Source: Candidatus Oleincola secundus (GTDB lineage: Bacteria > Atribacterota > Phoenicimicrobiia > Phoenicimicrobiales > Stramentimicrobiaceae). Taken from it: a stretch of 44,649 bases of DNA. The stretch spans positions 1-44,649 of the forward strand of contig JAGYLS010000006.1 of assembly GCA_018400815.1 (NCBI GenBank), read 5' to 3'. Of the stretch, positions 68 through 36,699 are shown one piece after another. The number at the start of each line of letters is the position of its first letter. Position 1 is the first letter of the stretch. A program made the position numbers and the translations under genes. The notes under the pieces were generated by a model that was not told the DNA's origin, did not search any database, and saw only the letters and a list, made by a program, of their open reading frames with translations.

Positions 68-307
68 TTTATTTAACCTGAAAAAACTTTTAAGAAGGTG
101 GTCATGGTTAAATAAATTGGTTTATCATGAAAAAGATCAAGAGAAGCTATCTGACAATTTTTTACCTGAAGTCCAAAGCAGGCAGTTGTATTGCTTAGAG
201 ATATTCAGTTCAAATACAAGAAAAAAGTAGAACAAGAAGTAACCAAGAAAAGGTTAAACCTCTTGAGGGGTTCTTAAAGCCACCTGCTATGCGGGTGCGA
301 TATTTGC
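68..307 (+). mobile_element. Non-autonomous IS200/IS605-like hairpin-ended repeat, copy 1 (near full length)
   Basis: Left palindrome TTTATTTAACC(68-78)...GGTTAAATAAA(106-116); internal TTTTACCTGAAGTCCAAAG shared with 33473-33720; right end AAACCTCTTGAGGGGTTCTTAAAGCCACCTGCTATGCGGGTGCGATATTTGC shared with five other copies. The repeat is seen directly; the family assignment is inference. Confidence 0.75.
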
Positions 308-350
308 AGTTGTATTTTAATAATATAAAAATATTTCAGAAGGTGATTTT

Positions 351-908
351 TTGATGAGAATTATAGCAGGTTTATATAAAGGATTCCCTTTACAATCATT
401 TCCAGGCAAAAGTGTTAGACCCACACCATCCAAAGTAAGGGAAGCTGTGTTTGACATACTGGGATTCAAAGTTATTGAATCTGATTTTTTAGACTTATTT
501 GCAGGAACAGGTGCTATTGGTATAGAAGCCCTTAGTAGGGGAGCAAAAAGAGTTACTTTTGTAGAGATAAATGGGCATGCGATAGATTTAATAAAAACGA
601 ATTTAATGAAAATTAATCAAAATGATTTTTCAAACATTATAAATAATAATTATATGCAGTCATTAAAAATGCTAAACTTTCAACAGAAGAAATTTGATAT
701 TATTTTTTTAGATCCACCTTATTATAAAAATATTACCCAAAAAACATTATATGAAATTGAAAGACACTATATTTTAAAAAGAAATTCTATAATAGTAGCA
801 CAACATCAGATCAATGAAGATGTGCAGGGGAGTTTTAAAAAGTTATCCTGTCTTAAAGAAAAAAGATATGGAAAATCTAAAATTACTCTTTTTAACTATA
901 AAGAATAA
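351..908 (+). CDS. rsmD: 16S rRNA m2G966 methyltransferase RsmD
   Basis: MRIIAG...RPT...VREAVF, LDLFAGTGAIGIEALSRGA, FLDPPY; adjacent to coaD; start TTG351 or ATG354 after GAAGGTGA. Confidence 0.95.
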   Translation: MMRIIAGLYKGFPLQSFPGKSVRPTPSKVREAVFDILGFKVIESDFLDLFAGTGAIGIEALSRGAKRVTFVEINGHAIDLIKTNLMKINQNDFSNIINNNYMQSLKMLNFQQKKFDIIFLDPPYYKNITQKTLYEIERHYILKRNSIIVAQHQINEDVQGSFKKLSCLKEKRYGKSKITLFNYKE

Positions 909-932
909 ATACTCATTAAAAAGGAGATATTA

Positions 933-1448
933 ATGATAAAGGCTATCTATCCAGGAAGTTTTGATCCAATCACTAATGGACATCTTGATATTATTAAAAG
1001 GGCAAGCAATATATTTGATAAAGTAATTGTGGTTATAGCAGAAAATTCACGAAAAAAATCTTTTTTCTCAATTGAAGAAAAAAAAGTAATGATTAATAAA
1101 GTAGTTAAAGATTTAAAGGGAATTGAAGTCCAGTCTTTTAATGGGCTATTAATCGACTGTGTGCGTTCAAACAAGGCAAATGTAATCCTGAGAGGCATGA
1201 GGGCAATTTCTGATTTCGAATACGAGTCTCAATTTGCTCTTATTAATAAAAAAATGGCTCCGGAAATTGAAACAATTTTTATGGTAACCAGTACAAAATA
1301 TTCTTATCTTAACTCCAGCATAGTGAAAGAAATTGCCTCTTTAAATGGTTGTATCACAGATTTGGTACCAGCATATGTTGCCAAACAATTGAAAATAAAA
1401 TTCAGTAAATATCGCACCCGCAAAGCGGATGGCTCTAAGAACCCCTAA
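933..1448 (+). CDS. coaD: Phosphopantetheine adenylyltransferase CoaD (last 14 codons and stop come from repeat copy 2)
   Basis: AIYPGSFDPITNGHLDII, RGMRAISDFEYE, SSIVKEIA. Confidence 0.97.
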   Translation: MIKAIYPGSFDPITNGHLDIIKRASNIFDKVIVVIAENSRKKSFFSIEEKKVMINKVVKDLKGIEVQSFNGLLIDCVRSNKANVILRGMRAISDFEYESQFALINKKMAPEIETIFMVTSTKYSYLNSSIVKEIASLNGCITDLVPAYVAKQLKIKFSKYRTRKADGSKNP

Positions 1449-1528
1449 AAGAGGTTTAACTTTTTCATGGTAAACCCAATTTATTTAACCATTACTTCCT
1501 TCTAAGAAGGGGGTAATGGTTAAATAAA
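1405..1528 (-). mobile_element. Repeat copy 2 (internally deleted, both ends kept)
   Basis: Reverse complement reads TTTATTTAACCATTACCCCCTTCTTAGAAGGAAGTAATGGTTAAATAAATTGGGTTTACCATGAAAAAG|TTAAACCTCTTTTAGGGGTTCTTAGAGCCATCCGCTTTGCGGGTGCGATATTTAC, matching both ends of copy 1. Confidence 0.8.
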
Positions 1529-1529
1529 T
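1479..1529. terminator. Long palindrome between convergent coaD and tmcAL; possible bidirectional terminator (left end of repeat copy 2)
   Basis: ATTTATTTAACCATTACTTCCTTC-TAA-GAAGGGGGTAATGGTTAAATAAAT; no clear U-tract, so function is inferred from position. Confidence 0.45.
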
Positions 1530-1539
1530 ATTGATACTA

Positions 1540-2838
1540 TCAATTATCTAAAATTATAATTTTCTTGGTATAATCCTGGGCTCCTAGTCTGGCCATTTTT
1601 GGTTTATATCCCAACACATATAGGTTCGTTGCCAGTATATCGTAATTTAACATTTTTTGTACCATTACATCTCCACTAAGCTTATTTTGTTGGTAAAAAT
1701 TTTTTAATTTAATAATAATAGGCAGTTTTGATTTCGATTTAATTTTTTTAAGCACAATTTTACCGTTTTCGGTCATTCCGAGAACCCGACAATAGGGAGG
1801 CCCTTTCTTGTTAAAAGCTATAATCTCTTTATGTGTCAAATTAAATAAACTATGAATTAATATCCTTTGTATCCTGGTCCTGGTGTAGCGTTTACTTTTA
1901 GTTTTTTGTATTAAATTTTCAATGTTAAAAGATGATATAGCACTTTCTTTTAGCCTATTTTCTAATCCTTCTTGAATACCATGTATTTCTTTGATTTCAT
2001 CAATTGACATTCTTCTTAGTTGACTAAAAATTCCCTGTTCAAAACATGATATAGTAATAGGATTAATACCTTTTTTTAGTTCATCTAGAATTATTTGATA
2101 TGAAGAAGAAGGCATAGATGAGCTTAATCCCTCTAAAGGAATATGATTATTATTAAAAATATTTTTAAATATTCTTTCTCTTATTGCAGTAGCACTGGAA
2201 TATTTTCCTTCTAATTTATCCTGTGAATAGTCTGAACCAATACGATTGATTGGAAATGGTTTAATAAGGCTATTTGTTTTTTTTAAAGATATCATATATT
2301 CTAAAGCCAAAACATTATTGGGTTGTTTCAATAGTTCTTTCAATTTTTCTATTGAATTGTTCTTAAATTTAGTTCCAAATTTTTTATAATATTTTTCTAT
2401 TGCCTTTTCTCGTATTTTTGGGAAATTTCCTCCTTTTTTTACCTCTTCTTTTAGTATTTGCTGGAAATAGAGTGGTTCTTTTTTTAATAATTCTACTAAT
2501 TCATTTAAACATGCTATCTGGCTATTCTCACAACCAAAAGAAACACAATCTACAATACCCAGAGAATTCAAAAGTTGAATACCGGCATGGGCAAACCCAC
2601 GGGCATCTTGGCTTGCAAAAACAAATGGAATCTCAATAACAAGATCAATTCCAGCTTTTAAAGCCATTATAGTACGAGTCCATTTATCTAAAATAGCCGG
2701 TTCGCCTCTTTGAAGAAAATTCCCACTCATTATAGCAATACTATATTTAGCTCCGGTTATTTCTTTTGATTTTTGCAAATGATATAGATGTCCATTATGA
2801 AAAGGGTTATATTCAGCAATAATTCCTATTGTTTCCAT
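1540..2838 (-). CDS. tmcAL: tRNA(Met) cytidine acetate ligase (HIGH nucleotidyltransferase, YlbM family)
   Basis: GIIAEYNPFHNGHLYHL, MSGNFLQRGEPA, PNNVLALEY, SATAIR, KRYTRTRIQR. Confidence 0.93.
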   Translation of the reverse strand: METIGIIAEYNPFHNGHLYHLQKSKEITGAKYSIAIMSGNFLQRGEPAILDKWTRTIMALKAGIDLVIEIPFVFASQDARGFAHAGIQLLNSLGIVDCVSFGCENSQIACLNELVELLKKEPLYFQQILKEEVKKGGNFPKIREKAIEKYYKKFGTKFKNNSIEKLKELLKQPNNVLALEYMISLKKTNSLIKPFPINRIGSDYSQDKLEGKYSSATAIRERIFKNIFNNNHIPLEGLSSSMPSSSYQIILDELKKGINPITISCFEQGIFSQLRRMSIDEIKEIHGIQEGLENRLKESAISSFNIENLIQKTKSKRYTRTRIQRILIHSLFNLTHKEIIAFNKKGPPYCRVLGMTENGKIVLKKIKSKSKLPIIIKLKNFYQQNKLSGDVMVQKMLNYDILATNLYVLGYKPKMARLGAQDYTKKIIILDN

Positions 2839-2866
2839 GTCTTTCCTCGATAAATGGTATTTTTTA

Positions 2867-2875
2867 TGCTATAAT
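2867..2875 (+). promoter_or_regulatory. Extended -10 promoter element for pta
   Basis: TGCTATAAT about 60 nt upstream of the pta ATG; SD AGGAGG follows. Confidence 0.5.
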
Positions 2876-2934
2876 TATACATCAATTTTTCTTAATTATT
2901 AAAAAGAATTATTTAGGAGGGAAATAAAGTCGCT

Positions 2935-3936: not shown

Positions 3937-4008
3937 TAATAAATTGCACGTTATCTTCTTAAGATATTTTAAAATGATATATATAATGTAACTAATATAA
4001 ATATATAT

Positions 4009-4036
4009 TTGCAAAAATATAATTATTTAATATAAT
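4009..4036 (+). promoter_or_regulatory. Putative sigma70/sigmaA promoter for rpmF
   Basis: TTGCAA-16 nt-TATAAT; the AT-rich context lowers specificity. Confidence 0.45.
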
Positions 4037-4093
4037 ACTTAATTGTTATTAATTAACAAAATAACTATTAATGCTCTAAAAGGAGGAAAAAAA

Positions 4094-4294
4094 GTGGCTT
4101 GCCCGAAAAGAAAGATATCAAAATCCAGAAAAAATAAACGAAGAACTCATTGGGTAGAAAAGTCAATTAACCTAATAGAATGTCCCAGATGCCATGAATT
4201 TAAACTTTCCCATCATGTTTGTCCCTCTTGCGGTTATTACAATGGAGAAAAAATTATAGAAGAAAAGAGTGTTTCTGAAGCAAAAGCAAACTAG
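4094..4294 (+). CDS. rpmF: 50S ribosomal protein L32 (zinc-binding C4 form)
   Basis: GTG start 7 nt after AGGAGG; (M)ACPKRKISKSRKNKRRTH, CPRC...HHVCPSCGYY. Confidence 0.96.
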   Translation: MACPKRKISKSRKNKRRTHWVEKSINLIECPRCHEFKLSHHVCPSCGYYNGEKIIEEKSVSEAKAN

Positions 4295-4361
4295 ACTTTA
4301 GCTATTACGATTTCCTTATTTCTAGTTTATCAATAAGTTTATATATAACGATTATTATTGG

Positions 4362-4565: not shown

Positions 4566-4589
4566 AGCAGTCAATAGTAGTAACAACTT

Positions 4590-4606: not shown

Positions 4607-4623
4607 AATATGATTTTAATTCA

Positions 4624-9815: not shown

Positions 9816-9819
9816 AAAA

Positions 9820-23119: not shown

Positions 23120-24550
23120 ATGTTAAAAGGTTTAATTCCATCTGAGATTGTATCAGAATTAAATAAATATATTATTGGACAAAAAAAAGCAAAAGAAACT
23201 GTGTCTATTGCCTTAAGAAACAGAATAAGAAGAAAAAAACTGCCTAAAAAATTAATTGATGAAGTTACTCCTAAAAATATTATAATGATAGGACCTACGG
23301 GTGTAGGAAAAACTGAAATAGCCCGCAGATTGGCTAAAATTGTCAAAGCACCTTTTATAAAAGTAGAGGCAACTAAATTTACCGAAGTAGGCTATGTTGG
23401 TAAAGATGTTGATTCTATGATAAGAGATTTGGTACAGGCTGCCATACAACTTATTCGGAAGGAAAAAATTGATGAGGTTCGCGAGAAAGCTAAGGAAAAA
23501 GTTGAAGAAAGAATAATGCAAGCTCTTTTCCCTAACATTAATCAAGAAGATTTAAAAGACGAGACAAATATAAATTACCAAAACAAGCACGATGGTATTC
23601 TTATAGATAAAGAAGGAAACACAGTCACTGATCATGATTTATCTAAACAAAATCAACAAAAGGAAAGATTTAAAAAAACAAAAGAAAAGCTGAGAGAAAG
23701 GCTCAGAAATGGAAAGTTTGAAGAAAAAATTATCGATATTGATATTGAAGAACAGAGCCAATCCTCAATGGATTTATTTTCTAATATGGGTATGGAAGGA
23801 ATCGGCATCAATTTTAAGGATATAATGGATAGAATGTTGCCTAACAAGAAAAAAAAGCAAAAGTTAAAAATATCAGATGCAAGAAACGTTCTGCTGGACG
23901 AGGAAATTGAAAAAATGTTGGAAACAAACAAGATAGCCAGGGAGGCTATTACCAAAACTGAGGAATTAGGAATTGTTTTTATTGACGAAATTGATAAAAT
24001 TGCAATGAAAGAAAAATCATATGGACCTGACGTATCAAGAAGTGGTGTACAGAGAGATATTTTGCCAATTATTGAGGGTTCTTCTGTTGTAACTAAATAT
24101 GGAGTAGTAAAGACTGACCATATTCTCTTTATAGCTGCTGGTGCTTTCAACTCCTCCAAACCTTCAGATTTAATACCTGAATTACAGGGTAGATTCCCGT
24201 TACGAGTAGAATTAAATAGTTTGAAACAAGAAGATTTAGAGAAAATACTGATAGAGCCAGACAATTCTTTAATTAAACAATATAAGGCACTTCTAAAAAC
24301 AGAAGGAATCGAGTTGGAATTTCAGTATGAAGCAATAAAAGAATTGGCTAGGATGGCTGCAATTGTAAATGAACAAAATGAAAACATTGGTGCCAGGAGA
24401 CTTTATACAGTCCTTGAAAAATTATTGGAAAGGATATCATTTAATGCCCCTAAGATAGGAAAAAAGAAATTAGTTATAACTAAAAACTATGTTAAAACTC
24501 GTTTGCAAAATGTCATACAACAGGAAGATTTGAGCAAATATATATTGTAA
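23120..24550 (+). CDS. hslU: ATP-dependent protease ATPase HslU (ClpY)
   Basis: GPTGVGKTE, KFTEVGYVG, FIDEIDK, PELQGRFP, ENIGARRL. Confidence 0.97.
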   Translation: MLKGLIPSEIVSELNKYIIGQKKAKETVSIALRNRIRRKKLPKKLIDEVTPKNIIMIGPTGVGKTEIARRLAKIVKAPFIKVEATKFTEVGYVGKDVDSMIRDLVQAAIQLIRKEKIDEVREKAKEKVEERIMQALFPNINQEDLKDETNINYQNKHDGILIDKEGNTVTDHDLSKQNQQKERFKKTKEKLRERLRNGKFEEKIIDIDIEEQSQSSMDLFSNMGMEGIGINFKDIMDRMLPNKKKKQKLKISDARNVLLDEEIEKMLETNKIAREAITKTEELGIVFIDEIDKIAMKEKSYGPDVSRSGVQRDILPIIEGSSVVTKYGVVKTDHILFIAAGAFNSSKPSDLIPELQGRFPLRVELNSLKQEDLEKILIEPDNSLIKQYKALLKTEGIELEFQYEAIKELARMAAIVNEQNENIGARRLYTVLEKLLERISFNAPKIGKKKLVITKNYVKTRLQNVIQQEDLSKYIL

Positions 24551-24638
24551 TAATATCAAATACTAAAAATTAATGTATAATATAATAGTAGATATTATAA
24601 AGGTCTATAAATTTTGCAAAAATATTGAGAGTCATTCT

Positions 24639-24755
24639 AATATTATAGTTAAAGGTGAAATAATAAATTGGAAGAAAAAGAGCTAAAAAGTGGTAACAAG
24701 TTAAACCTCTTTTAGAGGTTCTTAAAGCCACCCGCTATGTGGGTGCGATATTTAC
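24639..24755 (+). mobile_element. Repeat copy 3 (5'-truncated, right half only)
   Basis: AATATTATAGTTAAAGG...AAAAAGTGGTAACAAGTTAAACCTCTTTTAGAGGTTCTTAAAGCCACCCGCTATGTGGGTGCGATATTTAC aligns colinearly with about 33604-33720. Confidence 0.8.
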
Positions 24756-24779
24756 TAATTACAATATCAATTGTTTATC

Positions 24780-24808
24780 TTGATTAACAAAACTAATTAT
24801 GTTATACT
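24780..24808 (+). promoter_or_regulatory. sigma70/sigmaA promoter of rpsB-tsf-pyrH
   Basis: TTGATT-17 nt-TATACT with TG extension (TGTTATACT). Confidence 0.65.
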
Positions 24809-24889
24809 TATTTGGTTTTTATCGTTCTTTATTTTATAATATAACTATGATAAAATATTTAAATAATTTTTAAAAAGGAGAGTGGTTAT

Positions 24890-25603
24890 TTGAGCGTTGT
24901 ATCTATGAAACAATTATTAGAGTCTGGTGTCCATTTTGGACATCAAAAAAGGCGTTGGGATCCCAGAATGCGATCATATATTTTTACTGAAAGGAATAAT
25001 ATATATATTATTGACCTTCAACAAACTGTAAAATTAATAGATGAAGCTTACAATTTTGTTCATAACCTTGCTAGTAAGAATGGTAATATTATGTTTGTAG
25101 GAACAAAAAAACAGGCACAGGAATCAATTAGTTTAGAGGCTGAAAAATGTGGAATGCCATATGTTAACTATAGATGGCTCGGTGGCACATTGACTAATTT
25201 TAATACTATTAATCAAAGAGTTAAGCGCCTTTTTCAGTTAGAAAAAATGGAACAAGGGGAAGATTTTAATCTTCTACCTAAAAAAGAAGTCATTATTTTG
25301 AAAAGGGAAAAAGAAAAACTTGAAAAATTATTAACCGGCATTAAATATATGGAAAGATTGCCAGATGCTTTATTTATAATTGATCCAAAGCGAGAAAAAA
25401 TTGCAGTAGCGGAAGCTAGAAAGCTATCTATTCCTATTGTAGCAGTTGTTGATACCAATTGTAACCCTGAGGAAATTGATTACGTAATACCTGGGAATGA
25501 TGATGCAATCAGGGCAATCAAGCTGATGACCTCAGTTGTTGCTGATGCTGTTTTGGAAGGCAAGAAGGCATCTTTAGAAGATAATGTTAAAATAGCAGTA
25601 TAA
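24890..25603 (+). CDS. rpsB: 30S ribosomal protein S2
   Basis: [43 protein letters not shown] start after AAGGAG. Confidence 0.98.
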
Positions 25604-25646
25604 TTTTTTAAACAATATATGTTAACTTAAAGGAGATTGAAAGAAG

Positions 25647-26240
25647 ATGAGTATTAGCGCTAAACTAGTGAAAGAACTAAGAGATAAAACAACTGCGGGC
25701 ATGATGGATTGTAAAAAAGCCTTAACCCAAACTAATGGAGATTTAGAAAAAGCAGTTGATTATCTCCGTAAAAAAGGCATTCAATCAGCAAGTTCTAAAT
25801 TTGGTCGTAAAGCTTCAAATGGGTTAATTGCCTCTTATATACATTTAAATGGAAAAGTAGGGGTATTGTTGGAAATAAATTGTGAAACAGATTTTGTCGC
25901 AAAAACCCCAGAATTTAATGAATTGGCAAAAAATATTACGCTTCAAATTGCAGCATCCAATCCAAAGTACATTAAGCGTGAAGAAGTCCCGGAAGAAGTT
26001 GTAAGCAAAGAAAAAGAAGTTTATTATGGCCAGGCAGAAAATCTAAATAAACCTCAAAAAGTTCTAGACAATATAGTTGAAGGTAAGCTTAATAAATACT
26101 TTAAGGAGATTTGCTTGTTGGAACAAGAATACATACGCGAGCCTGAAAAGACAGTCAATCAACTGGTTTTAGAAGCAATAGCTAAGCTTAAAGAAAACAT
26201 TATAGTTAAAAGATTTGCTAGATTTAAACTTGGAGAATAG
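25647..26240 (+). CDS. tsf: Elongation factor Ts (short form)
   Basis: VKELRDKTTAGMMDCKKAL, EINCETDFVA. Confidence 0.97.
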   Translation: MSISAKLVKELRDKTTAGMMDCKKALTQTNGDLEKAVDYLRKKGIQSASSKFGRKASNGLIASYIHLNGKVGVLLEINCETDFVAKTPEFNELAKNITLQIAASNPKYIKREEVPEEVVSKEKEVYYGQAENLNKPQKVLDNIVEGKLNKYFKEICLLEQEYIREPEKTVNQLVLEAIAKLKENIIVKRFARFKLGE

Positions 26241-26318
26241 ATCGAGGGATAGAATGATTATTGAAAAACCTTTAAAATAGTTAACATATCTTATAATTCT
26301 AAACAATAATTAGAGAAA

Positions 26319-27044
26319 ATGAATAAAAATAACCCTATTTATAAAAGAATACTGTTAAAATTAGGTGGTGAATCCTTTTCTGAAGGAAGAAAAGGAGGAA
26401 TTGATGTTGGACGTGTTAAATTTATTTCAAAAGAATTAGCCGATATAAAACAGATGGGAATACAGATTGCAATTGTTATTGGGGGCGGAAACATTTTTCG
26501 AGGAAGAGAAGCAAGCAAGAAAGGAATTAATCAGGCATCTGCTGATTATATGGGAATGCTTGGCACTGTTATTAATGCTCTTGCCTTACAAGATTCATTA
26601 GAAAAGCTTAATATTGAAACAAGAGTTCAGACCGCTATTGAAATGAAAGCTATTGCCGAACCTTATATCAGGAGAAGGGCTATCAGACATTTAGAAAAAG
26701 ATAGGATTATTATCTTGGCAGCAGGTACGGGACATCCCTTTTTTACAACCGACACTGCTGCTGCATTAAGGGCTATCGAGTTAGAAGCCGATGCAATACT
26801 TAAAGCAACTAAAGTAGATGGTATTTATGAGTCAGATCCGCTTTTAAATGCGAATGCATTGAAATACAAAAAAATAAGTTTTCTTGATTTTCTAAATAAA
26901 AATTTAAGAGTTATGGATGCTACATCCATTTCATTGTGTATGGAAAACAATGTTCCTGTAATTGTTTTTAATCTAAATTTACCCGGGAATATAAAAAAAG
27001 TTATTTTAGGCGAACCTATCGGAACAATCGTAAAGGGGGACTAA
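26319..27044 (+). CDS. pyrH: UMP kinase
   Basis: [37 protein letters not shown]. Confidence 0.97.
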
Positions 27045-27594
27045 TGATGGTAAATGAACTATTAAAAGAAGCTAAGCATAAAATGAAAAAAGCTATTCAA
27101 ATAATTAGAGACGAACTGTCTCATATCAGGACAGGTAGAGCTTCATCTGCATTAGTAGAAACATCAAAGTAGAGTATTATGGTATTCCACTCCTTTGGCA
27201 AATTAATATATTTCATTCCTGAGGCTGATTTGATTGTTATCCAGCCAAGGGATAAGGGAGTTCTGTTATCGATGTAGAAAGCTATATGGAAAGAAGACTC
27301 AACACCTAATAATGATGGTACTGTTATACGTCTTTCAATTCCTCCCATGATTTGAAGACAGAACAGTATAGTTAAAATAGTAAAAAAGAGATAGAATCTT
27401 CTAAGGTTGCTATTAGAAATATCAGAAGAGATATTAAACATAAAATAAAAAAAATTGGAAAAAACAGTGAAATATCATCCGAAGACCAAAGCAAAGAAGT
27501 ATTCAAAGAAGTTCAGACTTAACAGACCACTACATAAAAGAAGACACAGATAGAAATTTATAAAGAAAAAGAAGCAGAAATAATGAAAGTCTAA
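27044..27594 (+). CDS. frr: Ribosome recycling factor, multiply frameshifted as written (probable sequencing errors)
   Basis: Fragments in shifting frames: MKKAI...IRTGRASS, KVEYYG, IVIQP, VEKAI, TPNNDGTVIRLSIPP, KVAIRNIRRD, KEKEAEIMKV*; pyrH-frr-uppS synteny. Confidence 0.9.
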
Positions 27595-27776
27595 AAATAA
27601 ACTATTTCTATCATTTTTATTTTTAATATTAATTACCAACTGGAGGTATGTAAAAATTATATAAAATAGCTGATGAATATTGAATATATTAATTATTCCC
27701 CCACTCATTGTAGTTATAAATATTGAATTATTTCTTTAGAATAAAATGGGGGTTTTATAAAATAATAAAGGTAAAA

Positions 27777-28519
27777 ATGCCGGAAAATCCAATAATAATT
27801 TAAATAATAATCAAAATATAAACTATCAATTTCCAATCATTGAGAAGGATTATAATGATGAAAATAGAAGATAAAAAAAATACCTTCCAAGATTTGCTGG
27901 AAGTCAACGCTGGAGTGAAAACGATAAGAATGGTCACGCTGAATCATTAAAGGCAGGGGTAAAAATATTAACTCTCTATGCCTTTTCCACTGAAAATTGG
28001 AAAAGATCAGAAAGAGAAATTACTTCAATAATGAATTTATTCCAAGAAGTTATTGAGAAAGAAAAAAGAAATCTTATCGAAAACCAGATTAAAGTTAATT
28101 TTATTGGTGACCGAATTACCTTATCCGAAAAATTGAAATCATCAATGAGTAATTTAGAAAATGCAACACAAAAAAATTATAAACTTATTCTAAATATTGC
28201 TATTAATTATGGAGGTCGATCAGAGTTATGCCATGCATTCCAATCAATCTATCAACAATTTAAAAAAAATAATCTAGAACCTTTCAATATAAATGAAAAA
28301 ATTATTAATCAAAATCTTTTTACGACAAATATCCCTGATCCTGATTTACTAATCCGCACAGGAGGGGAAAAGAGGATCAGCAATTTTCTTTTATGGCAAA
28401 TAGCATATACGGAGTTGTGGTTTACAAAAACATTCTGGCCGGATTTTTCTAAAAAAGATTTATGGAGAGCTTTTAATGATTATGAAAAAAGGGTGAGAAA
28501 ATTTGGGGGAGAAATTTGA
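27777..28519 (+). CDS. uppS: Undecaprenyl diphosphate synthase; 5' part frameshifted as written
   Basis: LTLYAFSTENWKR upstream in frame with ORF 28031; NYGGR, DPDLLIRTGGEKRISNFLLWQIAYTE, WPDF; start approximate. Confidence 0.9.
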
Positions 28520-29312
28520 AAAGATAAAAACCCGAACATTTACTATTGTGATCGGTGTGCCTTTTGTGCTACTTGTTATTCATTTAGGTGGAGTAATTTT
28601 TCATTCAATAATTGCTTTATTGGCAATTATAGGTACTATTGAACTATGGAATATTTTTAAAAGCAAATATAATCCTTCCCTAATTCTTGGAATAGCGGCA
28701 TCATTATTTTTTTTATTTAGAAGAACTATACCGGAAACGTTTTTTCTTAATGGTAATTTACTATTCACAATAATTATATTGCTTATTTTCATAGAACACT
28801 TTTTACTGAAAGCTAACAAAAAATACATGGTTATTAACATAGCAACAACTATATTTATTGCTATATATATTGGACATTTGTTGTCCTTTTTAATTGATAT
28901 TAGAAGCTTAACGGACGGTAATTTATTTATAATTTTTGCTTTATTCACAACCTGGATGAGTGATACAGTGGCATATATTGTAGGTATTAACTTTGGAAAA
29001 AAACATATTTTTCCAAACATTAGCCCTAACAAAACATTGGAGGGTTCTATTGGCGGGATTTTGGGTGGCTCTATTTGTGGAATAGCTTTTTATTTTTTGC
29101 TACCCTTGCATCCCTTAATGCTGTTCACCCTAGGTTTGATTTCTGCTATTTGTGGCCAAGCGGGTGATTTATTTGAATCAATAATTAAAAGAAATTTCGA
29201 TGTTAAAGACTCTGGTAAATTAATACCCGGCCATGGTGGAGTGCTAGATTGTATGGATAGTATTTTATTCTCAGTACCGGTTTTATATTTTTGTCTAAAT
29301 TATCTTAGTTAA
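28503..29312 (+). CDS. cdsA: Phosphatidate cytidylyltransferase
   Basis: Multi-TM; SDTVAY, ISPNKTLEG, GDLFESIIKR...KDSG...PGHGGVLD. Confidence 0.95.
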   Translation: MGEKFEKIKTRTFTIVIGVPFVLLVIHLGGVIFHSIIALLAIIGTIELWNIFKSKYNPSLILGIAASLFFLFRRTIPETFFLNGNLLFTIIILLIFIEHFLLKANKKYMVINIATTIFIAIYIGHLLSFLIDIRSLTDGNLFIIFALFTTWMSDTVAYIVGINFGKKHIFPNISPNKTLEGSIGGILGGSICGIAFYFLLPLHPLMLFTLGLISAICGQAGDLFESIIKRNFDVKDSGKLIPGHGGVLDCMDSILFSVPVLYFCLNYLS

Positions 29313-29352
29313 AGTTATTTTTGTTAAAAAAAATGGAGTAAAAATTATTTTT

Positions 29353-30519
29353 ATGAAAAAATGTATAACAATATTAGGATCAACTGGTTCTGTAGGGAAA
29401 CAAACCTTAGAGGTAATTCAAAATGAACCAGAAAGTTTTGAAGTTATTGCTTTATCGGCCTGGAAAAATGTTGATTTATTAAAAACACAAATTGATCAAT
29501 TTAAGCCTAAATATGTAGTAGTAAAAGATGATAAGTTAGCTAAGGAATTAAAAAATAAATTAGCAAATAAAAATAATTGCAATATACTGTATGGGGACTA
29601 TGGACTTAGTAAAATATCCACCATAAAAGAAATTGACATGGTAGTTGTTGCAATTGCTGGCATGAATGCTTTAAAGCCTGTAATCGAAGCAATCAATGCC
29701 AAAAAAGAGATTTGTCTGGCAAACAAAGAGATAGTAGTTTCTGCCGGAGAAATACTCATGGAGGAAGCAAAAAGAAATGACATAAAGATAGTTCCTATTG
29801 ACAGTGAGCATAGCGGAATATTGCAGTGCATTCAGCCACAATTTTATAATAACATCGAAAAAATTATTATTACTGCATCAGGAGGGCCATTTTATAATTT
29901 AAAAGAAGCTGCTCTAGATACTGTCTCAGTAGAGGAAGCTCTAAACCATCCCAATTGGCAAATGGGAAATAAGGTAACAATCGATTCAGCAACTTTAATG
30001 AATAAAGGCCTTGAAGTTATTGAAGCTTATTGGCTTTTTAATATTTCTCTTAACAAAATTGAAATATTAGTTCACCCTCAAAGTTATATTCATGCCCTGG
30101 TTCAATACGAAGATGGTAGTATGATTGCTCAACTAAGTAACCACGATATGCGTATCCCTATCCATTTTGCTTTACATTATCCAAAAAGAGTTAAAAGTAA
30201 CCTATCTAGACTTAATTTGGCAAAAATTGGTCAACTAACTTTTAAAAAGCTTGACTCTAAAAGATTTCCCAGTGTTGATCTTTGTTATGAAGCAATTAGA
30301 CAGGGGGGCACTTTTCCTGCAGCACTAAATGCAGCAAATGAAGTTGCTGTTAATGCTTTTTTAAATCAAGGATTAAAATTTAAAGAAATTATAAATATTG
30401 TATCAAAAGTAATAAATAAACATAATAATAAAACAAATCCTAGCATACAAGATATTATCTATCAGGATCGGGAAACTAGAAGGCTGACAAGCCAATTTTG
30501 CACCGAAAATAAAAATTGA
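29353..30519 (+). CDS. dxr: 1-deoxy-D-xylulose 5-phosphate reductoisomerase
   Basis: LGSTGSVG, LANKE, PIDSEH, TASGGPF, HPNWQMG, NKGLEVIEA, NAANE. Confidence 0.97.
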   Translation: MKKCITILGSTGSVGKQTLEVIQNEPESFEVIALSAWKNVDLLKTQIDQFKPKYVVVKDDKLAKELKNKLANKNNCNILYGDYGLSKISTIKEIDMVVVAIAGMNALKPVIEAINAKKEICLANKEIVVSAGEILMEEAKRNDIKIVPIDSEHSGILQCIQPQFYNNIEKIIITASGGPFYNLKEAALDTVSVEEALNHPNWQMGNKVTIDSATLMNKGLEVIEAYWLFNISLNKIEILVHPQSYIHALVQYEDGSMIAQLSNHDMRIPIHFALHYPKRVKSNLSRLNLAKIGQLTFKKLDSKRFPSVDLCYEAIRQGGTFPAALNAANEVAVNAFLNQGLKFKEIINIVSKVINKHNNKTNPSIQDIIYQDRETRRLTSQFCTENKN

Positions 30520-30572
30520 CAGATAGCTAAATAAATAATAAACAAACCATTAATTAAGAGGAGACATAGAAA

Positions 30573-31634
30573 TTGTTGACCATATTAGCCTTTATTTTTG
30601 TTCTGGGAATAGCTATTCTTTTTCATGAATTTGGTCATTTTATAACAGCAAAATTATCAGGAATAAAAGTTTTTCGTTTCTCTTTAGGTTTCGGACCAAA
30701 AATTGCCGGTTTTTTCTGGAAGGGAACGGAATATATATTATGCTTATTTCCATTTGGTGGATATGTTAAGATGGCAGGGGAAATGGCAAATAACGAAAAT
30801 TATGAAAATAAAGATATATCGACAGAAGAATATATTCCCGAAAAGCAAAGATTTGACAAAAAATCATTTTTTGTCAGAGCTTCTGTAATAGTAAATGGCC
30901 CTATTATGAATATTGTTTTGGCATTATTATTGCTAATAATTGTTTTCTACTTTTCTGGAATAGCACAAGTATCAAACACCATTAGTAATGTTGCTGACGA
31001 AAGTCCTGCAACAAAAGCTGGCATTTTAAGTGGTGATAAGATAGTATCTATCGATTCAACCATAATAGAAAATGCTGAAGAAATCTCAGAGATTATTAAT
31101 CAAAAAAAAGAGGAAATGATTACAATACGCCTTAGGCGAAATAATGATTTCTTCGAAACTAAAGTTGTTCCAGAATACAATGCTGAATACGAAAGGGCTA
31201 TGATAGGTATTACCCTTGAGGTTAATATAAAAAACCTAACTTTTTTACAGTCAGTCAGCAAGTCTATAGAAATGGTTGGTGAAATAATCCGTTTGATTGG
31301 AAGAGGATTTTTGGAAATGTTCACAGGAAAAATGCCTATAGAACTCGCTGGTCCATTGGGGATTGCTCAAATGGCCGGAGAAGCAGCACAAGTTGGCTTT
31401 TTGAACTTGTTATTTTTTACAGCAGTAATAAATATTTTTTTAGGAATTATCAATCTCTTCCCTATCCCAATATTGGATGGTGGACAAATTGTCTTGTTAG
31501 CAATCGAAAAAATCAGGGGTAAACCACTTGAACCTGAACACGTTAATTTTATTTATATTGTCGGTCTTGCATTGGTTGTTATGATTTTCCTAATCGCAAC
31601 CTATCAAGATATTTTAAGAATTTTTACAGAATAA
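30573..31634 (+). CDS. rseP: RIP metalloprotease RseP/RasP (M50 plus PDZ)
   Basis: HEFGH, FSLGFGP, PFGGYVKM, NLFPIPILDGG. Confidence 0.95.
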   Translation: MLTILAFIFVLGIAILFHEFGHFITAKLSGIKVFRFSLGFGPKIAGFFWKGTEYILCLFPFGGYVKMAGEMANNENYENKDISTEEYIPEKQRFDKKSFFVRASVIVNGPIMNIVLALLLLIIVFYFSGIAQVSNTISNVADESPATKAGILSGDKIVSIDSTIIENAEEISEIINQKKEEMITIRLRRNNDFFETKVVPEYNAEYERAMIGITLEVNIKNLTFLQSVSKSIEMVGEIIRLIGRGFLEMFTGKMPIELAGPLGIAQMAGEAAQVGFLNLLFFTAVINIFLGIINLFPIPILDGGQIVLLAIEKIRGKPLEPEHVNFIYIVGLALVVMIFLIATYQDILRIFTE

Positions 31635-31650
31635 TAATTAGGATTAAATA

Positions 31651-32745
31651 ATGTCTGAAAATATTAATAGAAGAAAAAGTAAAATTGTAGAAATTGGTAG
31701 CTTAAAAATTGGTGGAAACCATCCTGTTTCTGTACAATCCATGACCAACTGTAATATTAAAGATACTAAAACAACTATTAAACAAATTAAACAATTAGAA
31801 TCAGCTGGATGTGATTTGATTCGGATTGCTATTCCCGATATTGATTCATGTCGTTTTATTCCAACTATCAAAGAAAAAACTCATATTCCTATTATGGCTG
31901 ACATACATTTTAACTCCACTATAGCCATAGAGGCAATAAAAAATAATGTTGACGGTATAAGGATTAATCCGGGTAATATAAAGCAAGAATCCCAAATAGT
32001 TCATATTATTGAAGAGGCCCGGGAAAAAAATATTATGATTCGTTTTGGGGTAAATTCTGGTTCACTTGATAAAAGCATTATGAAAAAGTACGGTGAGCCA
32101 AATTTCAAAGCAATGGTTGAAGAAACAGATCGTTTGATTTCCTTTTTAGAAAAAATTAGCTATGATAATATTGTTCTATCCATTAAATCAAGCGATGTTA
32201 TGGATACCATCAAAGCAAATCAAATCATTGCTGAAAAAACTGATTATCCTTTGCATATTGGTATCACAGAAGCTGGTTTTGATAGAAAAGGTATTACAAA
32301 ATCGGCAATAGGAATTGGCATATTATTGTATAAAGGGATTGGTGATACAATAAGAGTGTCTTTATCTGGTAATCCTATTCAAGAAGTTTTAGTAGGACAT
32401 GATATTTTACGTTCACTAACAATCAGAAAAAGAGGTATTAATATTATTTCCTGTCCCACCTGTGGAAGATGTAAGGTTGATATTCATTATATTGGCAAAA
32501 AAATAGAACGTAATTTACGGGATATCAATCAACCTTTTACTATTGCAATTATGGGTTGTGTTGTAAACGGTCCCGGTGAGGCGAAATTTGCCGATATTGG
32601 AATTGCCTTTAATAACCAAGAAGCCATGCTTTATAAAAAGGGTCAATTAATTGGCCGGTATAGCAAAGAAGAAGCTGTTACTAAGTTGATAGAAGAGGTT
32701 AGGTCTATTTCTAAAAATAATATTAATACTCTCAATGTTGATTAG
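31651..32745 (+). CDS. ispG: HMBPP synthase IspG
   Basis: VQSMTN, ADIHF, RINPGN, PLHIGITEAG, GDTIRVSL, SCPTCGRC, MGCVVNGPGE. Confidence 0.97.
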   Translation: MSENINRRKSKIVEIGSLKIGGNHPVSVQSMTNCNIKDTKTTIKQIKQLESAGCDLIRIAIPDIDSCRFIPTIKEKTHIPIMADIHFNSTIAIEAIKNNVDGIRINPGNIKQESQIVHIIEEAREKNIMIRFGVNSGSLDKSIMKKYGEPNFKAMVEETDRLISFLEKISYDNIVLSIKSSDVMDTIKANQIIAEKTDYPLHIGITEAGFDRKGITKSAIGIGILLYKGIGDTIRVSLSGNPIQEVLVGHDILRSLTIRKRGINIISCPTCGRCKVDIHYIGKKIERNLRDINQPFTIAIMGCVVNGPGEAKFADIGIAFNNQEAMLYKKGQLIGRYSKEEAVTKLIEEVRSISKNNINTLNVD

Positions 32746-32794
32746 CTTAAATTTATTTATATTAATAAAAAATACTGCCAAAAAAGGTGAATAG

Positions 32795-33424
32795 ATGAAA
32801 ATATCGGTTATTATACCTGCTTACAATGAGGAAATTACTATTGCAGATGTAATTAAAACAGTAAAAAATGTTCCCGAAATTAATGATGTCATTGTAGTAA
32901 GTGATGGTTCAACTGACGATACAGTAGCTATTGCACGGGGATTAAATGTAGATGTTTATCAGATGGAAGAAAATATTGGCAAGGGAGGGGCAATTAAAAG
33001 AGGATTTGAAAATACTGACTCAGATATATTGTTGTTTTTAGATGCTGATTTAATCGGATTAAAGAATGAACATGTTTATGCTTTAATAAACCCCATTAGA
33101 GAAAATATTGCCGATATGACTATTGGTATTTTTACCCAGGGAAGATTACTAACGGATTTGCCCCAATTCTTAATGCCCTATCTTTCGGGACAGAGAGCAA
33201 TAAAAAGACAAATTATTGATACTATTCCCAATATGGATTTACTAAAGTATGGTCTTGAGTTAGCTATCACTAAAATTGTAAAAAAGTACGACTATAGGGT
33301 CAGCAAGGTAAAGTTACATAATTTAACACAAAGAATAAAAGAAGAAAAATATGGTCTTGTTGAAGGTGCCAAAAAAAGGTTACAAATGTATTTTGACATT
33401 GTAAAACAATTAAAATCTGATTAA
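32795..33424 (+). CDS. Glycosyltransferase family 2
   Basis: SVIIPAYNEE, DGSTD, GKGGA, FLDADL, LSGQRA. Confidence 0.88.
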   Translation: MKISVIIPAYNEEITIADVIKTVKNVPEINDVIVVSDGSTDDTVAIARGLNVDVYQMEENIGKGGAIKRGFENTDSDILLFLDADLIGLKNEHVYALINPIRENIADMTIGIFTQGRLLTDLPQFLMPYLSGQRAIKRQIIDTIPNMDLLKYGLELAITKIVKKYDYRVSKVKLHNLTQRIKEEKYGLVEGAKKRLQMYFDIVKQLKSD

Positions 33425-33472
33425 CTAAGCATCTTTTATTTACTTTAGTTTAAGGATCTATTTTATATATTT

Positions 33473-33720
33473 TTTATCTAACCATTTCCACCTTCTAAGA
33501 GGGTGGTAATGGTTAGATAAACAGTTTTACTATAAAAAAATTAAGAGTAGCTAGATGACAATTTTTCACCTGAAGTCCAAAGTTGGAAGTACGATTACTT
33601 AGGAATATTATAGCTAAAGGTTAAATAAAAAATCGAAAGAAAAAGATCTAAAAAGTGGTAAAAACTTAAAACTCTTTTAGAGGTTCTTAAAGACACCCGC
33701 TATTCGGGTGCGGTATTTAC
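33473..33720 (+). mobile_element. Repeat copy 4 (full length, 248 nt)
   Basis: TTTATCTAACCATTTCCACCTTC-TAA-GAGGGTGGTAATGGTTAGATAAA left palindrome; TGACAATTTTTCACCTGAAGTCCAAAG; right end CTCTTTTAGAGGTTCTTAAAGACACCCGCTATTCGGGTGCGGTATTTAC. Confidence 0.82.
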
Positions 33721-33763
33721 TTGATTTGATTTTAAATTAAAAGTAGAAAAAGCATACTAATAA

Positions 33764-33791
33764 TTGACAAACATTAAATATTGGTTACAAT
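33764..33791 (+). promoter_or_regulatory. Putative promoter of the V-ATPase operon
   Basis: TTGACA-16 nt-TACAAT between repeat copies 4 and 5. Confidence 0.45.
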
Positions 33792-33896
33792 AAACTTAAA
33801 TTCATAATATATAAATTTCAAAAATAATATCTCTTTATAGATACAATTTATCTGACTTAAAAAAATATTTATGATATTTTTTAAAGTATATTGTTC

Positions 33897-34065
33897 TGAT
33901 TAATATTTTACCTTTAAATCCTAAATAGACAAACATGGTATAAAAGAGCTCCTTTAAAAGATAGCTAACAGATCAAAGAAAAACTATAGAAAAAACTGTC
34001 TAATAAAACTTAAGCCTCTTTTAGAGGCTTCTAAGGCCACCCGCTATGCGGGGTGCGATATTTAT
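33897..34065 (+). mobile_element. Repeat copy 5 (degenerate; left boundary uncertain, possibly about 33848)
   Basis: AATATTTTACC...TCCTAAA shared with copy 6; ATAGCTAA shared with copy 4; right end AAGCCTCTTTTAGAGGCTTCTAAGGCCACCCGCTATGCGGGGTGCGATATTTAT. Confidence 0.72.
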
Positions 34066-34115
34066 TTGACACATGCATTTATAAAGGTCAAATTAGTGCT
34101 TTTGGGAGCATTAAT

Positions 34116-34430
34116 ATGTTAAAAAAAAAAAATCATAAAAGAATTAAAAGATACTGAACATGAAGCAGTAAAAATGATTGAAGATGCAAAAAAAGAAGGC
34201 CAAAGATGGTTCAGGGAGGAAAAGGATAAACAAGAACAGATTAAAACAATGTAATTATTGAATGGAACCAAAAGGGTCAGACATGATAGAAGAGCAGAAC
34301 AAAAAAAGCCCAATAAAAAACTAAAGATATTCATGCAAAATAGTAAAAAGAAAAAGAAAGACTTAGAAATAATTTAAAAAAGAAATATAATCAGGCAATT
34401 GAGATGATTTTAGATAATCTGGAGAAATAA
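34116..34430 (+). CDS. ntpF: V/A-type ATPase peripheral stalk subunit G/H (NtpF-like); frameshifted as written
   Basis: IIKELKDTEHEAVKMIEDAKKEG...YNQAIEMILDNLEK*; about 105 codons, first gene of the operon, SD GGGAG. Confidence 0.7.
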
Positions 34431-34431
34431 A

Positions 34432-36419
34432 ATGGCAATATCTAAGGTAAATAAATTTCATATTTTTGCACATTTATCAATAAAAGAACAATTGGTCTAG
34501 AAGAATTGCAAAAATTAGGTTCTGTTGAAATTATGCATATCAGTAAAAACTGTATTTCATGATTGGAAAAATATTGAAGACAATCTTGATATTAATATAT
34601 CCGCAGAACTAAATAAGGTAAAATTTTGCATTGATCTTCTTTCTAATTACCAAGAAGAAAAATAAAGGATTAAAATCATTATTTTCATCTAAAGAAACAA
34701 TAGATTTATAAAGGTTAGTTGGCTATCACAGCAACTGGAATATGACAAATTATACCCAGCAATGCAAAGAATTGGATAATGATCTTAATAACCTGAAACT
34801 ACAGAAAATAAATTAAAGGCTATCGAACAAGAACTTCAGGATTGGAAAGAGTTAGAACTCTGATTTAAGCACAATTAATCAGTCAAAATATGTCAGATAT
34901 CTCTTGGGTTCAGTGGCTAAAAACAATCTGGAGGCTTTAAGAACAGAAATAAAAAAAACAAAGTAAATTTAATGTTATCCAGTCTATCAAAGAAGAAAAA
35001 CAAATCCAATATTGTTGTTATTAGTGTAAAAGAAAATATCGAGAAATACAGCGAATTGCGCAGAAATACCAGATTGAAATCTATAAGTATAGTTATAATT
35101 ATTCTGAACTCCAAAACAAATATTAAAAGAAATTTCAAAAGAATTAAGGGATATTGGCAAAAGAAGAAAAAAAATTGAATTAGAATTAAAAGATGTTACC
35201 TTTCTTTTTAAGAACAATCAATCAATCTACCAGATTTATAGATTTTTATCGATTAACAAAGAAAAAGAAGAGGTTTCTGGTTATCTGAAGAAAAGCGAAC
35301 AATCTTTGTAATAAAGGGTTGGATACGGAAAAAGACATTTCCATACTACAGGGTAGATTAAAAGTGAAACATTTTACGGCTTATGAAGTCTATTTTACTG
35401 AACTAAAAAGAAGATGAACAGGTTCTGTTTCTTTAGACAATCACAAATTCAGCCCTTTGAAGTTATTATAACTGGAGCTTTATAGTCTACCAAATTATTT
35501 TGAAATGGATCCGACTTCCAATTCTTCAATATTTATCTATCTGATCTGGCCTGATGTTGGCTATGGTGCTGCTCTGGCAATTTTATGTTATCTTGCCATC
35601 AACAAATTGAGTTTCTTGGTTGTAGTGCCAGAAAGTTTTCAGTTTACTTTATTATTATGGAATTGCCGAAATATTCTTGTGGAGGAATAGTCGTTGGGAG
35701 CTGGTTTGGAGATATTTTAAATTATTTACCACCCACATTTAGTAATATAAGGCATTTGGTTCAGAGACTTTCCTTATTTGAATCTCGACAGATAACCCTA
35801 TCCCGCTTTTGATTTTAAGTCTTTCTCGGGGTCATACAAGTTTATAATGGGAATTATTTTAAAATTTTTAGATAATGTAAAAAGATAAATTACTAGATGG
35901 GCTTATGGATCAGGATATCAATGGTTAATCTTTTTAACAGGCATTATTTTGCTTTTACTGCAAGGAATGATAGCCCCAATTTTTGGTAAAATAGCATGGT
36001 TTCTATTGATTGCAGGTATGCTTACAATCATCTTTACCCAGGGAAGGACAAACAAGAATATTATAATGAGAATTGGTAGTGGAATACTATCTTTATATAA
36101 TATTACAGGATATTTCAGTGATATTCTTTCCTATTCTAGATTGTTCGCACTAGGTTTGGCAACAGGTATAATTGCCACCATGTTTAATATGCTTGCCACA
36201 ATGGTTAATGTGCCCTATATAGGAATATTTTTAACTTTAATCATATTGTTTATAGGACATGTTTTCAACCTATTAATTAGCGGATTAAGTGCTTTTATTC
36301 ATGATGCCAGATTACAATATGTAGAATTTTTTACAAAATTTTATCAAGCTGGTGGGGTTGCTTTTAAACCATTTAATCTCAAGACGACATATACTAAAGT
36401 TGAGGAAAGAAAACAATAA
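34432..36419 (+). CDS. ntpI: V/A-type ATPase subunit I (a); 5' three quarters heavily frameshifted as written
   Basis: MAISKVNK start, EELQKLGSVEI, YSLPNYFEMDPT, DVGYG; intact C-terminus SDILSYSRLFALGLATG, HDARLQYVEFFTKFY. Confidence 0.9.
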
Positions 36420-36438
36420 AAAAATTTTCATAGGTTAG

Positions 36439-36699
36439 TTTATTTAACCATAAAAAAACCACCTGAAATATTTTACCCGAGGTCCTAAAAAGAGGCAACA
36501 CCATAGTGCTTAATCGTATTGGAATATTAAATAAAGCGATACAATGAAGCACTACGATCTCTTCATTAAGACCCAACTATATACGAAGTTAGATTTTAAG
36601 ATGAAGCAGAGTATCCCAGGGGGTCTCAGGGGGAAGGTTTCTCATTGAATATCCTGGGAAGAATCGTTTAGCCACCCGCTTTGCGGGTGCGGTATTTAC
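36439..36699 (+). mobile_element. Repeat copy 6 (left-hairpin deletion, about 130 nt unique structured interior)
   Basis: TTTATTTAACCATAAAAAAACCACC, TTTTACCCGAGGTCC...AGGCA...TGCTTA, perfect right hairpin GCCACCCGCTTTGCGGGTGCGGTATTTAC. Confidence 0.75.

What the first reader, a model, noticed from the sequence alone, without database searches (positions are those of the whole stretch)
68..36699. Six copies of a hairpin-ended, TIR-less ~250-nt element family dispersed through a housekeeping region
Seen: related elements at 68-307(+), 1405-1528(-), 24639-24755(+), 33473-33720(+), ~33897-34065(+) and 36439-36699(+), about one per 7 kb. The shared architecture is a left palindrome TTTATYTAACC...GGTTARATAAA, an internal TTTYACCYGARGTCC block, an A-rich spacer, a hairpin AACCTCT-TTT-AGAGGTT, a hairpin CACCCGC-TWT-GCGGGTG and the terminus GCGRTATTTAC. 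There are no terminal inverted repeats, no target duplication and no transposase in the window. Known: IS200/IS605 elements use subterminal hairpins rather than TIRs, make no TSD, and give rise to non-autonomous palindrome-ended derivatives. Inference: an abundant, probably uncatalogued non-autonomous Y1/HUH-mobilised family (PATE/REP-like) that occupies most of the larger intergenic gaps here.
Basis: partly seen in the sequence, partly recalled or inferred. Interest (0 to 1): 0.78.

Follow-up and report, generated by a model that had tools for sequence, protein, structure and literature searches.

The report
Gene-less IS200 transposon copies (PATEs)
The six repeats are real and belong to about 90 gene-less remnants of an IS200-type jumping gene scattered through this bacterial genome, likely spread by that element's transposase acting from elsewhere, which makes them a new example of a well-known kind of element (PATEs) rather than a new system.

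Summary
Observation confirmed with corrections; interpretation supported. All six copies exist. The genome holds 89 right-end motifs against 0 in a shuffled genome, and Rfam has no match. Relatives of the same order (Atribacterota by record titles) carry intact IS200-type elements: a 147-aa HUH/Y1 TnpA, no tnpB, enclosed by the same left and right hairpins. Filled and empty sites show insertion 3' of TTTAT/TTGAT without duplication. Guide and cleavage tetranucleotides covary as in IS608 (126 of 130 right ends, 83 of 86 left ends), and the repeats carry matching pairs. Occupancy in relatives is patchy, against an ancient RNA. Corrections: only 3 of 6 copies keep a full left palindrome; its first TTTAT is the target, not element; copies fill 4 of 11 large gaps, not most. 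Against current activity: no cognate tnpA in this 86%-complete genome, and no two copies over 94.5% identical. The scan reported the same family before on another genome (e1-4518158). Verdict: new PATE family of the IS200 group; low-to-moderate interest.

The parts
68..72 (+). TTTAT target (left cleavage site C_L) of copy 1; host DNA
   Evidence: target assignment from empty sites elsewhere
73..307 (+). Copy 1, full-length 235-nt PATE upstream of rsmD; decayed left hairpin; right hairpin 280-297 with guide AAAG 276-279; last four bases mutated to TTGC
   Evidence: absent at the orthologous site of G001, with about 13 nt of flank also missing
1405..1523 (-). Copy 2, 119-nt internally deleted PATE with both ends; its right end lies in the last codons of coaD and supplies a 14-residue C-terminal tail
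   Evidence: same right junction in G001, site empty in 10 of 11 family genomes with both flanks aligned
1524..1528 (-). TTTAT target of copy 2 (minus strand)
24639..24755 (+). Copy 3, 5'-truncated (right 117 nt only), between hslU and rpsB
   Evidence: absent in G001, about 20 unrelated nt instead
33473..33477 (+). TTTAT target of copy 4
33478..33720 (+). Copy 4, full-length 243-nt PATE; left palindrome of the 'perfected' form that lacks the AAAA guide; the stop-codon hairpin of the ancestral tnpA precedes the right hairpin; ends TTTAC
33897..34065 (+). Copy 5, left end lost, interior of a second subfamily, right end with a 1-nt insertion
   Evidence: G001 has a 92-nt copy with a left end at this site
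36439..36443 (+). TTTAT target of copy 6
36444..36699 (+). Copy 6, 256 nt, long-interior subfamily; half of the left hairpin, intact right end; upstream of the V-ATPase subunit K gene
   Evidence: short remnant in G001, site empty in 10 of 11 family genomes
36619..36656 (+). Diverged copy of a second, REP-like palindrome inside copy 6

Best explanation
The repeats are gene-less derivatives (PATEs) of an IS200-group insertion sequence, and they were likely spread by peel-and-paste transposition with the parent's Y1/HUH transposase TnpA supplied in trans. Shown: they share the left hairpin, the tnpA stop-codon hairpin and the right hairpin with intact tnpA elements of relatives. They sit 3' of TTTAT (rarely TTGAT) with no duplication and end in TTTAC. 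The four bases at the 5' foot of each hairpin (AAAA left, AAAG right) are the Watson-Crick partners of those cleavage sites in the IS608 register. Inferred from IS608 biochemistry: TnpA binds both hairpins on single-stranded DNA, cuts after TTAT and after TTAC, releases a top-strand circle and inserts it after another TTAT, probably on the lagging-strand template. Inferred history: most of the spread predates or accompanies the split from the sister species G001. Since then copies have decayed by microhomology deletion and palindrome self-correction, and most are probably immobile now.
For: Same ends around an intact IS200/IS605 TnpA (NF033573, 149.8 bits against cut-off 55) in 3 genomes of the order and many metagenome loci. 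Truncated intermediates in G025 and G078, and a decayed relic in the same family (G003) with the PATE's right hairpin. A profile of the autonomous element hits both ends of the genome's copies, E down to 2e-14. One exact empty site (gap 0; G001:C111 filled, G000:C192 empty) and two within 1 nt (G011, G007). Left flank TTTAT in 44 of 50 copies with a left hairpin. Guide/cleavage complementarity in autonomous relatives: position 4-4 in 126 of 130 right ends (shuffled mean 45.7, max 63) and 83 of 86 left ends (mean 29.3, max 44); position 1-2 in 126 of 130 and 81 of 86. Head-to-tail junctions RE|LE in G000:C79 and L124-L126. Top strand on the G-rich strand in 67 of 79 copies although non-coding TTTAT is commoner on the other strand.
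Against: No cognate tnpA in G000 or in the other PATE-rich genomes searched (best matches 42% identity or less); the intact partners lie in a sister family where the PATE motif is in 1 of 30 genomes. PATE ends differ from the partners' in the last ~10 nt and in an extended left arm (39 of 47 copies against 0 of 20 partners). The middle 100-250 nt shows no significant similarity to the tnpA coding sequence (z at most 2.1, no nhmmer hit). Only 30 of 89 right ends keep the exact AAAG/TTAC pair. The two window sites empty in G001 (copies 1, 3) are imprecise. The strand bias cannot be separated from gene orientation: 85% of coding DNA is on the G-rich strand, and only 12 of 18 copies between oppositely oriented genes follow it (counted by hand).
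Confidence: 0.9

Rival explanations
1. Each copy is a separately decayed full IS200 insertion: the autonomous element spread and every copy then lost tnpA in place, so no gene-less unit was ever mobilised.
For: In-place deletion is common: shared sites in G000 and G001 hold copies of different length. Half-deleted tnpA elements exist (G025, G078, G003).
Against: 27 copies share one ~240-nt collinear layout with subfamily-specific interiors. Two copies at different loci of G037 are identical at 200 of 207 columns, including their shortened interior. Independent deletions would not converge like this.
Confidence: 0.04
2. The repeats are a domesticated regulatory element or RNA (terminator, mRNA stabiliser, REP-like site) kept by selection, whatever their origin.
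For: Almost all copies are intergenic (right end inside a long ORF in 4 of 89), and 53 of 89 are co-oriented with both neighbours. Two terminator-like hairpins lie in copy 5 (2 found against 0.3 expected).
Against: No Rfam match. Occupancy is patchy: the right-end motif is in 10 of 21 family genomes and 0 of 34 genomes outside the order. Shared sites show independent large deletions and hairpin loss. Intergenic location is also expected from purifying selection on insertions.
Confidence: 0.04
3. The repeats are REP/BIME-type sequences spread by a RAYT (TnpA-REP), or were cross-mobilised by the genome's own unrelated IS200 transposase.
For: G000 encodes two RAYT-like proteins and one IS200 TnpA, which lies directly behind a copy on C133.
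Against: No copy flanks the RAYT-like genes. The resident IS200 is enclosed by its own, different hairpins and is only 39% identical to the partner TnpA; in G015 and G019 the same IS occurs with those hairpins and no copy beside it.
Confidence: 0.02

Closest known systems
PATEs (palindrome-associated transposable elements) of Haloquadratum walsbyi (PMC3119063; passages read)
   Same: No TIRs, near-terminal palindromes related to IS200/IS605-family elements, no target duplication, too short for a transposase, high copy number, heterogeneous copies, repeat-mediated core deletions, strain-specific insertions, targeting by other mobile elements, and spread without an intact tnpA found in the genome.
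   Different: Bacterial (Atribacterota) host; parent is a tnpA-only IS200-group element rather than IS605-type with tnpB; unrelated end sequences; the invader of the palindrome here is a group II intron.
IS608 of Helicobacter pylori, IS200/IS605 family (PMC3201880; abstract, introduction and passages read)
   Same: Subterminal hairpins, tetranucleotide guides at their 5' foot, insertion 3' of a target kept once, right cleavage site inside the element. IS608's left pair (AAAG/TTAC) is this element's right pair. The partner TnpA matches ISHp608 transposase structures at E 1e-20.
   Different: No coding capacity in the repeats; the partner has no tnpB; target TTAT rather than TTAC; mechanism not tested here.
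PATE-like elements of ISGst in Geobacillus stearothermophilus (10.1101/2023.03.14.532601; passages read)
   Same: Gene-less elements with the ends of resident IS200/IS605 elements; covariation between guide and TAM/TEM.
   Different: Those parents carry TnpB/IscB and omegaRNA; here none of the close autonomous loci examined has room for tnpB.
REP/BIME and RAYT (TnpA-REP) systems (PMC6006769; passages read)
   Same: High-copy intergenic hairpins processed by Y1 HUH enzymes.
   Different: REPs are single 21-65-nt hairpins tied to RAYT genes; this element has distinct left and right ends, about 240 nt, and an IS200-type partner.

Membership tests
PATE | No terminal inverted repeats | tested here: met
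   Elements begin TTAACC and end TTTAC; ends are not complementary
PATE | Near-terminal palindromes related to those of an IS200/IS605-family element | tested here: met
   Both ends align with tnpA-bearing elements, e.g. copy 4 left 50/71, right 38/49
PATE | No target duplication | tested here: met
   Empty site with gap 0 and target kept once; two more within 1 nt
PATE | Too short to encode a transposase | tested here: met
   52-318 nt for the 53 copies with both ends called; a few longer forms up to about 400 nt; no tblastn hit to TnpA below E 0.28
PATE | Mobile as a gene-less unit (strain-specific insertions) | tested here: met
   Species-specific filled/empty sites; near-identical pair at two loci in G037. 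Conspecific polymorphism not shown.
IS200/IS605 family (parent) | Y1 HUH TnpA enclosed by these ends | tested here: met
   147-aa TnpA with HIH and Y..Q, NF033573 over cut-off, in relatives; not found in G000 itself
IS200/IS605 family (parent) | Guide tetranucleotides pair with cleavage sites | tested here: met
   126/130 and 83/86 at position 4, 126/130 and 81/86 at guide 1-site 2; sequences are related, and site positions 1 and 3 were constrained by the search pattern
IS200/IS605 family (parent) | Insertion 3' of a fixed tetra/pentanucleotide | tested here: met
   TTTAT in 44 of 50, TTGAT 3, others 3
IS200/IS605 family (parent) | Top strand on the lagging-strand template | tested here: inconclusive
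   67 of 79 on the G-rich strand, but confounded with gene orientation in a fragmented assembly
IS200/IS605 family (parent) | Single-stranded circular intermediate, TnpA-dependent excision | not testable with these tools
   Needs biochemistry; only chromosomal RE|LE tandem junctions were seen
IS605 group | tnpB present | tested here: not met
   The right end follows the tnpA stop within about 45 nt in the close autonomous loci, so the parent is IS200 group
REP/RAYT system | Repeats flank a RAYT gene in the host | tested here: not met
   No profile hit in loci L002-L004 or L028-L043
MITE (TIR type) | Terminal inverted repeats and usually a target duplication | tested here: not met
Known Rfam RNA family | Match at gathering score | tested here: not met
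   Only a tRNA passes in the window
Named ISfinder element | High identity to a catalogued IS | not testable with these tools
   ISfinder not available; best plasmid TnpA matches are 53.5% identical and unnamed; no DNA match in plasmids or viral contigs

The most novel reading that the evidence does not exclude
The PATE's left hairpin has gained a 3' arm (TAAATAAA; 39 of 47 copies, 0 of 20 close autonomous elements) that folds back over its own target and cleavage site once inserted. It would mask the site from TnpA after insertion and act as an excision lock, a one-way ratchet explaining how a gene-less derivative reached about 90 copies in one family while its parent stayed at 1-2 copies per assembly. 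Further self-correction of the palindrome (14 of 46 copies) would erase the guide and fix the copy for good.
Probability: 0.12. Interest if true: 0.55.

Novelty: new member of a known kind. Interest (0 to 1): 0.25.

Why it matters
It documents an IS200-derived PATE family in a little-studied phylum, with boundaries, target and partner transposase defined, which helps annotation: the copies fragment assemblies, alter gene ends (coaD) and host group II introns. The 160 related tnpA loci give a natural data set of guide/cleavage-site covariation that extends the IS608 rule to several guide types. None of this changes what is known about how such elements work.

Tried and rejected
Rfam scan of the window: only a tRNA above threshold. 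The IS200 tnpA right behind a copy on G000:C133 looked like the partner but has its own different hairpins and 39% identity, so it was rejected. RAYT-like genes: no copies beside them. The idea that the whole interior is decayed tnpA was not supported; the stretch that by eye resembled an LKGK codon run is a separate REP-like palindrome. Apparent 5-nt duplication (TTTAT ... TTTAC/TTTAT): rejected by empty sites. The class of copies that starts about 60 nt in is not a second left end: in the copies listed it is mostly a deletion between two near-identical 9-nt repeats, or an intron insertion. Laying four runs on window 23500-37500 gave no clean conspecific empty site; one contig skips copy 6 imprecisely, and other joints lie inside repeats. 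Whether the samples that hold this genome also hold a cognate tnpA remains open. No match of copy 4 in plasmids, none of the right-end motif in viral contigs. Promoter-like sites around copies 4-5 were at chance level, 6 against 4.8. Part's output (rows for copy 3) was cut and is not used. Paper supplements were not opened; PMC3119063's tables of PATE ends were therefore not compared.
Full report
Observation. All six elements are present at the stated places. The window is contig C170 of a 2.02-Mb, 86%-complete genome, G000. A 26-nt right-end motif with up to four mismatches occurs 89 times in the genome and never in a base-shuffled copy. Blastn with copy 4 returns 27 full-length copies that align collinearly over about 240 nt. 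The right end is in 6 of 6 copies, the penultimate hairpin in 5, the exact internal block in 3 and a complete left palindrome in 3; copy 6 has half of it and copies 3 and 5 none. The copies occupy 4 of 11 gaps over 150 nt in my ORF list plus one short gap. Rfam gives only a tRNA above threshold. Flanking genes are housekeeping genes: rsmD, coaD, hslU, rpsB and V-ATPase subunits.

The autonomous partner. G000 has four PF01797 matches, none in the window. One, an IS200 TnpA on C133, lies directly behind a copy but is enclosed by its own different hairpins. Of the 30 Y1 loci returned from 41 genomes, two besides that C133 locus matched the repeat profile. In G036:C36 both ends enclose an intact 147-aa TnpA; in G025:C66 the same left end leads into a truncated tnpA that runs into a PATE-like right end. 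The protein scores 149.8 bits on NF033573 (cut-off 55), has HIH and a tyrosine followed four residues later by glutamine, and matches solved IS200/IS605 transposases (E 3e-28 to 1e-20). Its closest database hits carry Atribacterota record titles, so the window is inferred to come from that phylum. Close relatives in genomes and metagenomes share the layout: TTTAT, left hairpin, about 40 nt, tnpA, a stop codon inside the CTCT-TTT-AGAG hairpin, a right hairpin, TTTAC or TTTAG, with no room for tnpB. A profile of 17 such elements hits both ends of the G000 copies (E down to 2e-14), including up to about 60 nt of the A-rich tnpA tail (composition may inflate that part). The middle of the repeat could not be tied to tnpA (z at most 2.1 for 10 interiors; no nhmmer hit).

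Boundaries and target. One site is exact: G001:C111 carries a 145-nt copy where G000:C192 has the flanks joined with gap 0, the target TTGAT kept once. Two G000 copies on C192 have empty sites within 1 nt in G011 and G007. The five bases before the left end are TTTAT in 44 of 50 copies, and the first base after the right end is T in 81 of 89. The likeness of TTTAT and TTTAC is therefore not a duplication. Head-to-tail junctions occur in G000:C79 and in autonomous loci L124-L126.

Guide test. In IS608 the cleavage sites are read by four bases at the 5' foot of each hairpin: guide 1 pairs with site 2 and guide 2 with site 1 (PMC3201880). The 4-4 pair is recalled from the IS608 structure paper and fits that paper's AAAG/TTAC pair. 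Of 160 tnpA loci, 135 distinct right ends and 88 left ends were extracted, and a site was called in 130 and 86. Position 4-4 is complementary in 126 of 130 (2000 shuffles: mean 45.7, max 63) and 83 of 86 (29.3, 44); position 1-2 in 126 of 130 (89.7, 101) and 81 of 86 (71.9, 78). The sequences are related and the pattern constrained site positions 1 and 3, so these are not probabilities, but all four bases occur at position 4. The repeats carry AAAA/TTAT on the left (guide intact in 31 of 46) and AAAG/TTAC as the commonest right pair (30 of 89 exact).

Distribution and age. Copy 4 matches 16 of 21 other genomes of the family and 5 of 19 of a sister family, the latter weakly. The right-end motif is in 10 of 21, 1 of 30 and 0 of 34 genomes of the family, the sister family and the rest of the phylum. 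In the sister species G001, sites 2, 4, 5 and 6 are filled by copies of other lengths; sites 1 and 3 are empty but imprecisely so. Sites 2 and 6 are each empty in 10 of 11 family genomes with both flanks aligned. This is neither identical occupancy nor conserved length, which argues against an ancient RNA. The intact partner was found only in sister-family genomes (G036, G083, G084), with a decayed relic bearing the PATE's right hairpin in G003. No PATE-rich genome searched has a match above 42%; these assemblies are incomplete and repeats often fail to assemble. The 27 full-length copies have a median identity of 78%, and no pair among 59 extracted elements exceeds 94.5%, so spread in G000 looks old. 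Two copies in G037 are identical at 200 of 207 columns, pointing to more recent movement there.

Orientation. The top strand is the G-rich strand in 67 of 79 copies on contigs of 8 kb or more, and by majority in 36 of 39 contigs, although non-coding TTTAT is commoner on the C-rich strand (1873 against 2344). That fits lagging-strand-template targeting (PMC5027513; passages). But 85% of coding DNA is on the same strand and only 12 of 18 copies between oppositely oriented genes follow it, so the test is inconclusive.

Mechanism. Shown: shared ends with an IS200-group element, target 3' insertion without duplication, guide complementarity, patchy occupancy. Inferred: TnpA in trans excised top-strand circles and inserted them after TTAT. 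Afterwards, deletions between short repeats removed left hairpins or interiors, and template-switch correction turned the left end into a perfect palindrome without its guide in 14 of 46 copies. One feature is specific to the PATE: a 3' arm complementary to the target and first bases, in 39 of 47 copies and 0 of 20 close partners. It may be a by-product of palindrome correction (one of three TTGAT copies has the compensating change) or, less likely, an excision lock.

Comparison and verdict. The element meets the definition of PATEs given for Haloquadratum (PMC3119063; passages) and resembles the PATE-like elements of Geobacillus (10.1101/2023.03.14.532601; passages) and Halanaerobium (PMC7290912; passages). 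It fails the tests for TIR-MITEs, REP/RAYT and the IS605 group. A search for Atribacterota with repeats and IS200 found 0 papers. A looser one listed only general MITE papers, and another only general IS papers (listings seen only). ISfinder could not be searched. It is a new member of a known kind; interest 0.25.

Noticed in passing
G000:C192:1820-3939 (L356); L136, L138, L142, L326: A group II intron (Rfam RF02001, RF01998, RF00029; 474-aa ORF with a reverse-transcriptase-like YADD motif) sits about 5 nt behind the left hairpin of one copy. Intron parts also interrupt the left end of two autonomous elements and follow the right end of two others. This fits class IIC introns, which insert behind stem-loops (PMC7923331; passages); the class was not tested.
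   Followed up: partly
window 36619-36656; G010, G014, G015: A second, REP-like palindrome lies inside the long subfamily including copy 6. It stands alone and in tandem with 192 and 158 matches in G010 and G014, 15 in G015, 4 in G000 and 2 in G001. It was not found beside the Y1 genes held; its mobiliser is unknown.
   Followed up: partly
window 1405-1448: Copy 2 lies in the last codons of coaD, so the reading frame ends in 14 residues read mostly from the element; G001 has a different, longer read-through from its copy.
   Followed up: partly
window 34070-36440: The V-ATPase subunit I region between copies 5 and 6 is broken into short frames (longest 176 codons) where G001 has a 665-codon open frame, and it is 84% identical to G001 against about 92% elsewhere. 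Contigs of other runs show indels here. Pseudogene or assembly error, not resolved.
   Followed up: partly
G000:C133:17100-17650 (L001): An unrelated IS200 (39% identical TnpA, own hairpins) is inserted directly behind the right end of a copy; the same IS occurs in G015, G019, G027 and G003.
   Followed up: yes
G000:C1: The largest contig (88.5 kb) has 27% G+C against 34% for the genome and no copy of the repeat; possibly a mobile or mis-binned region.
   Followed up: no
window 43301-43374: A tRNA gene on the + strand.
   Followed up: no
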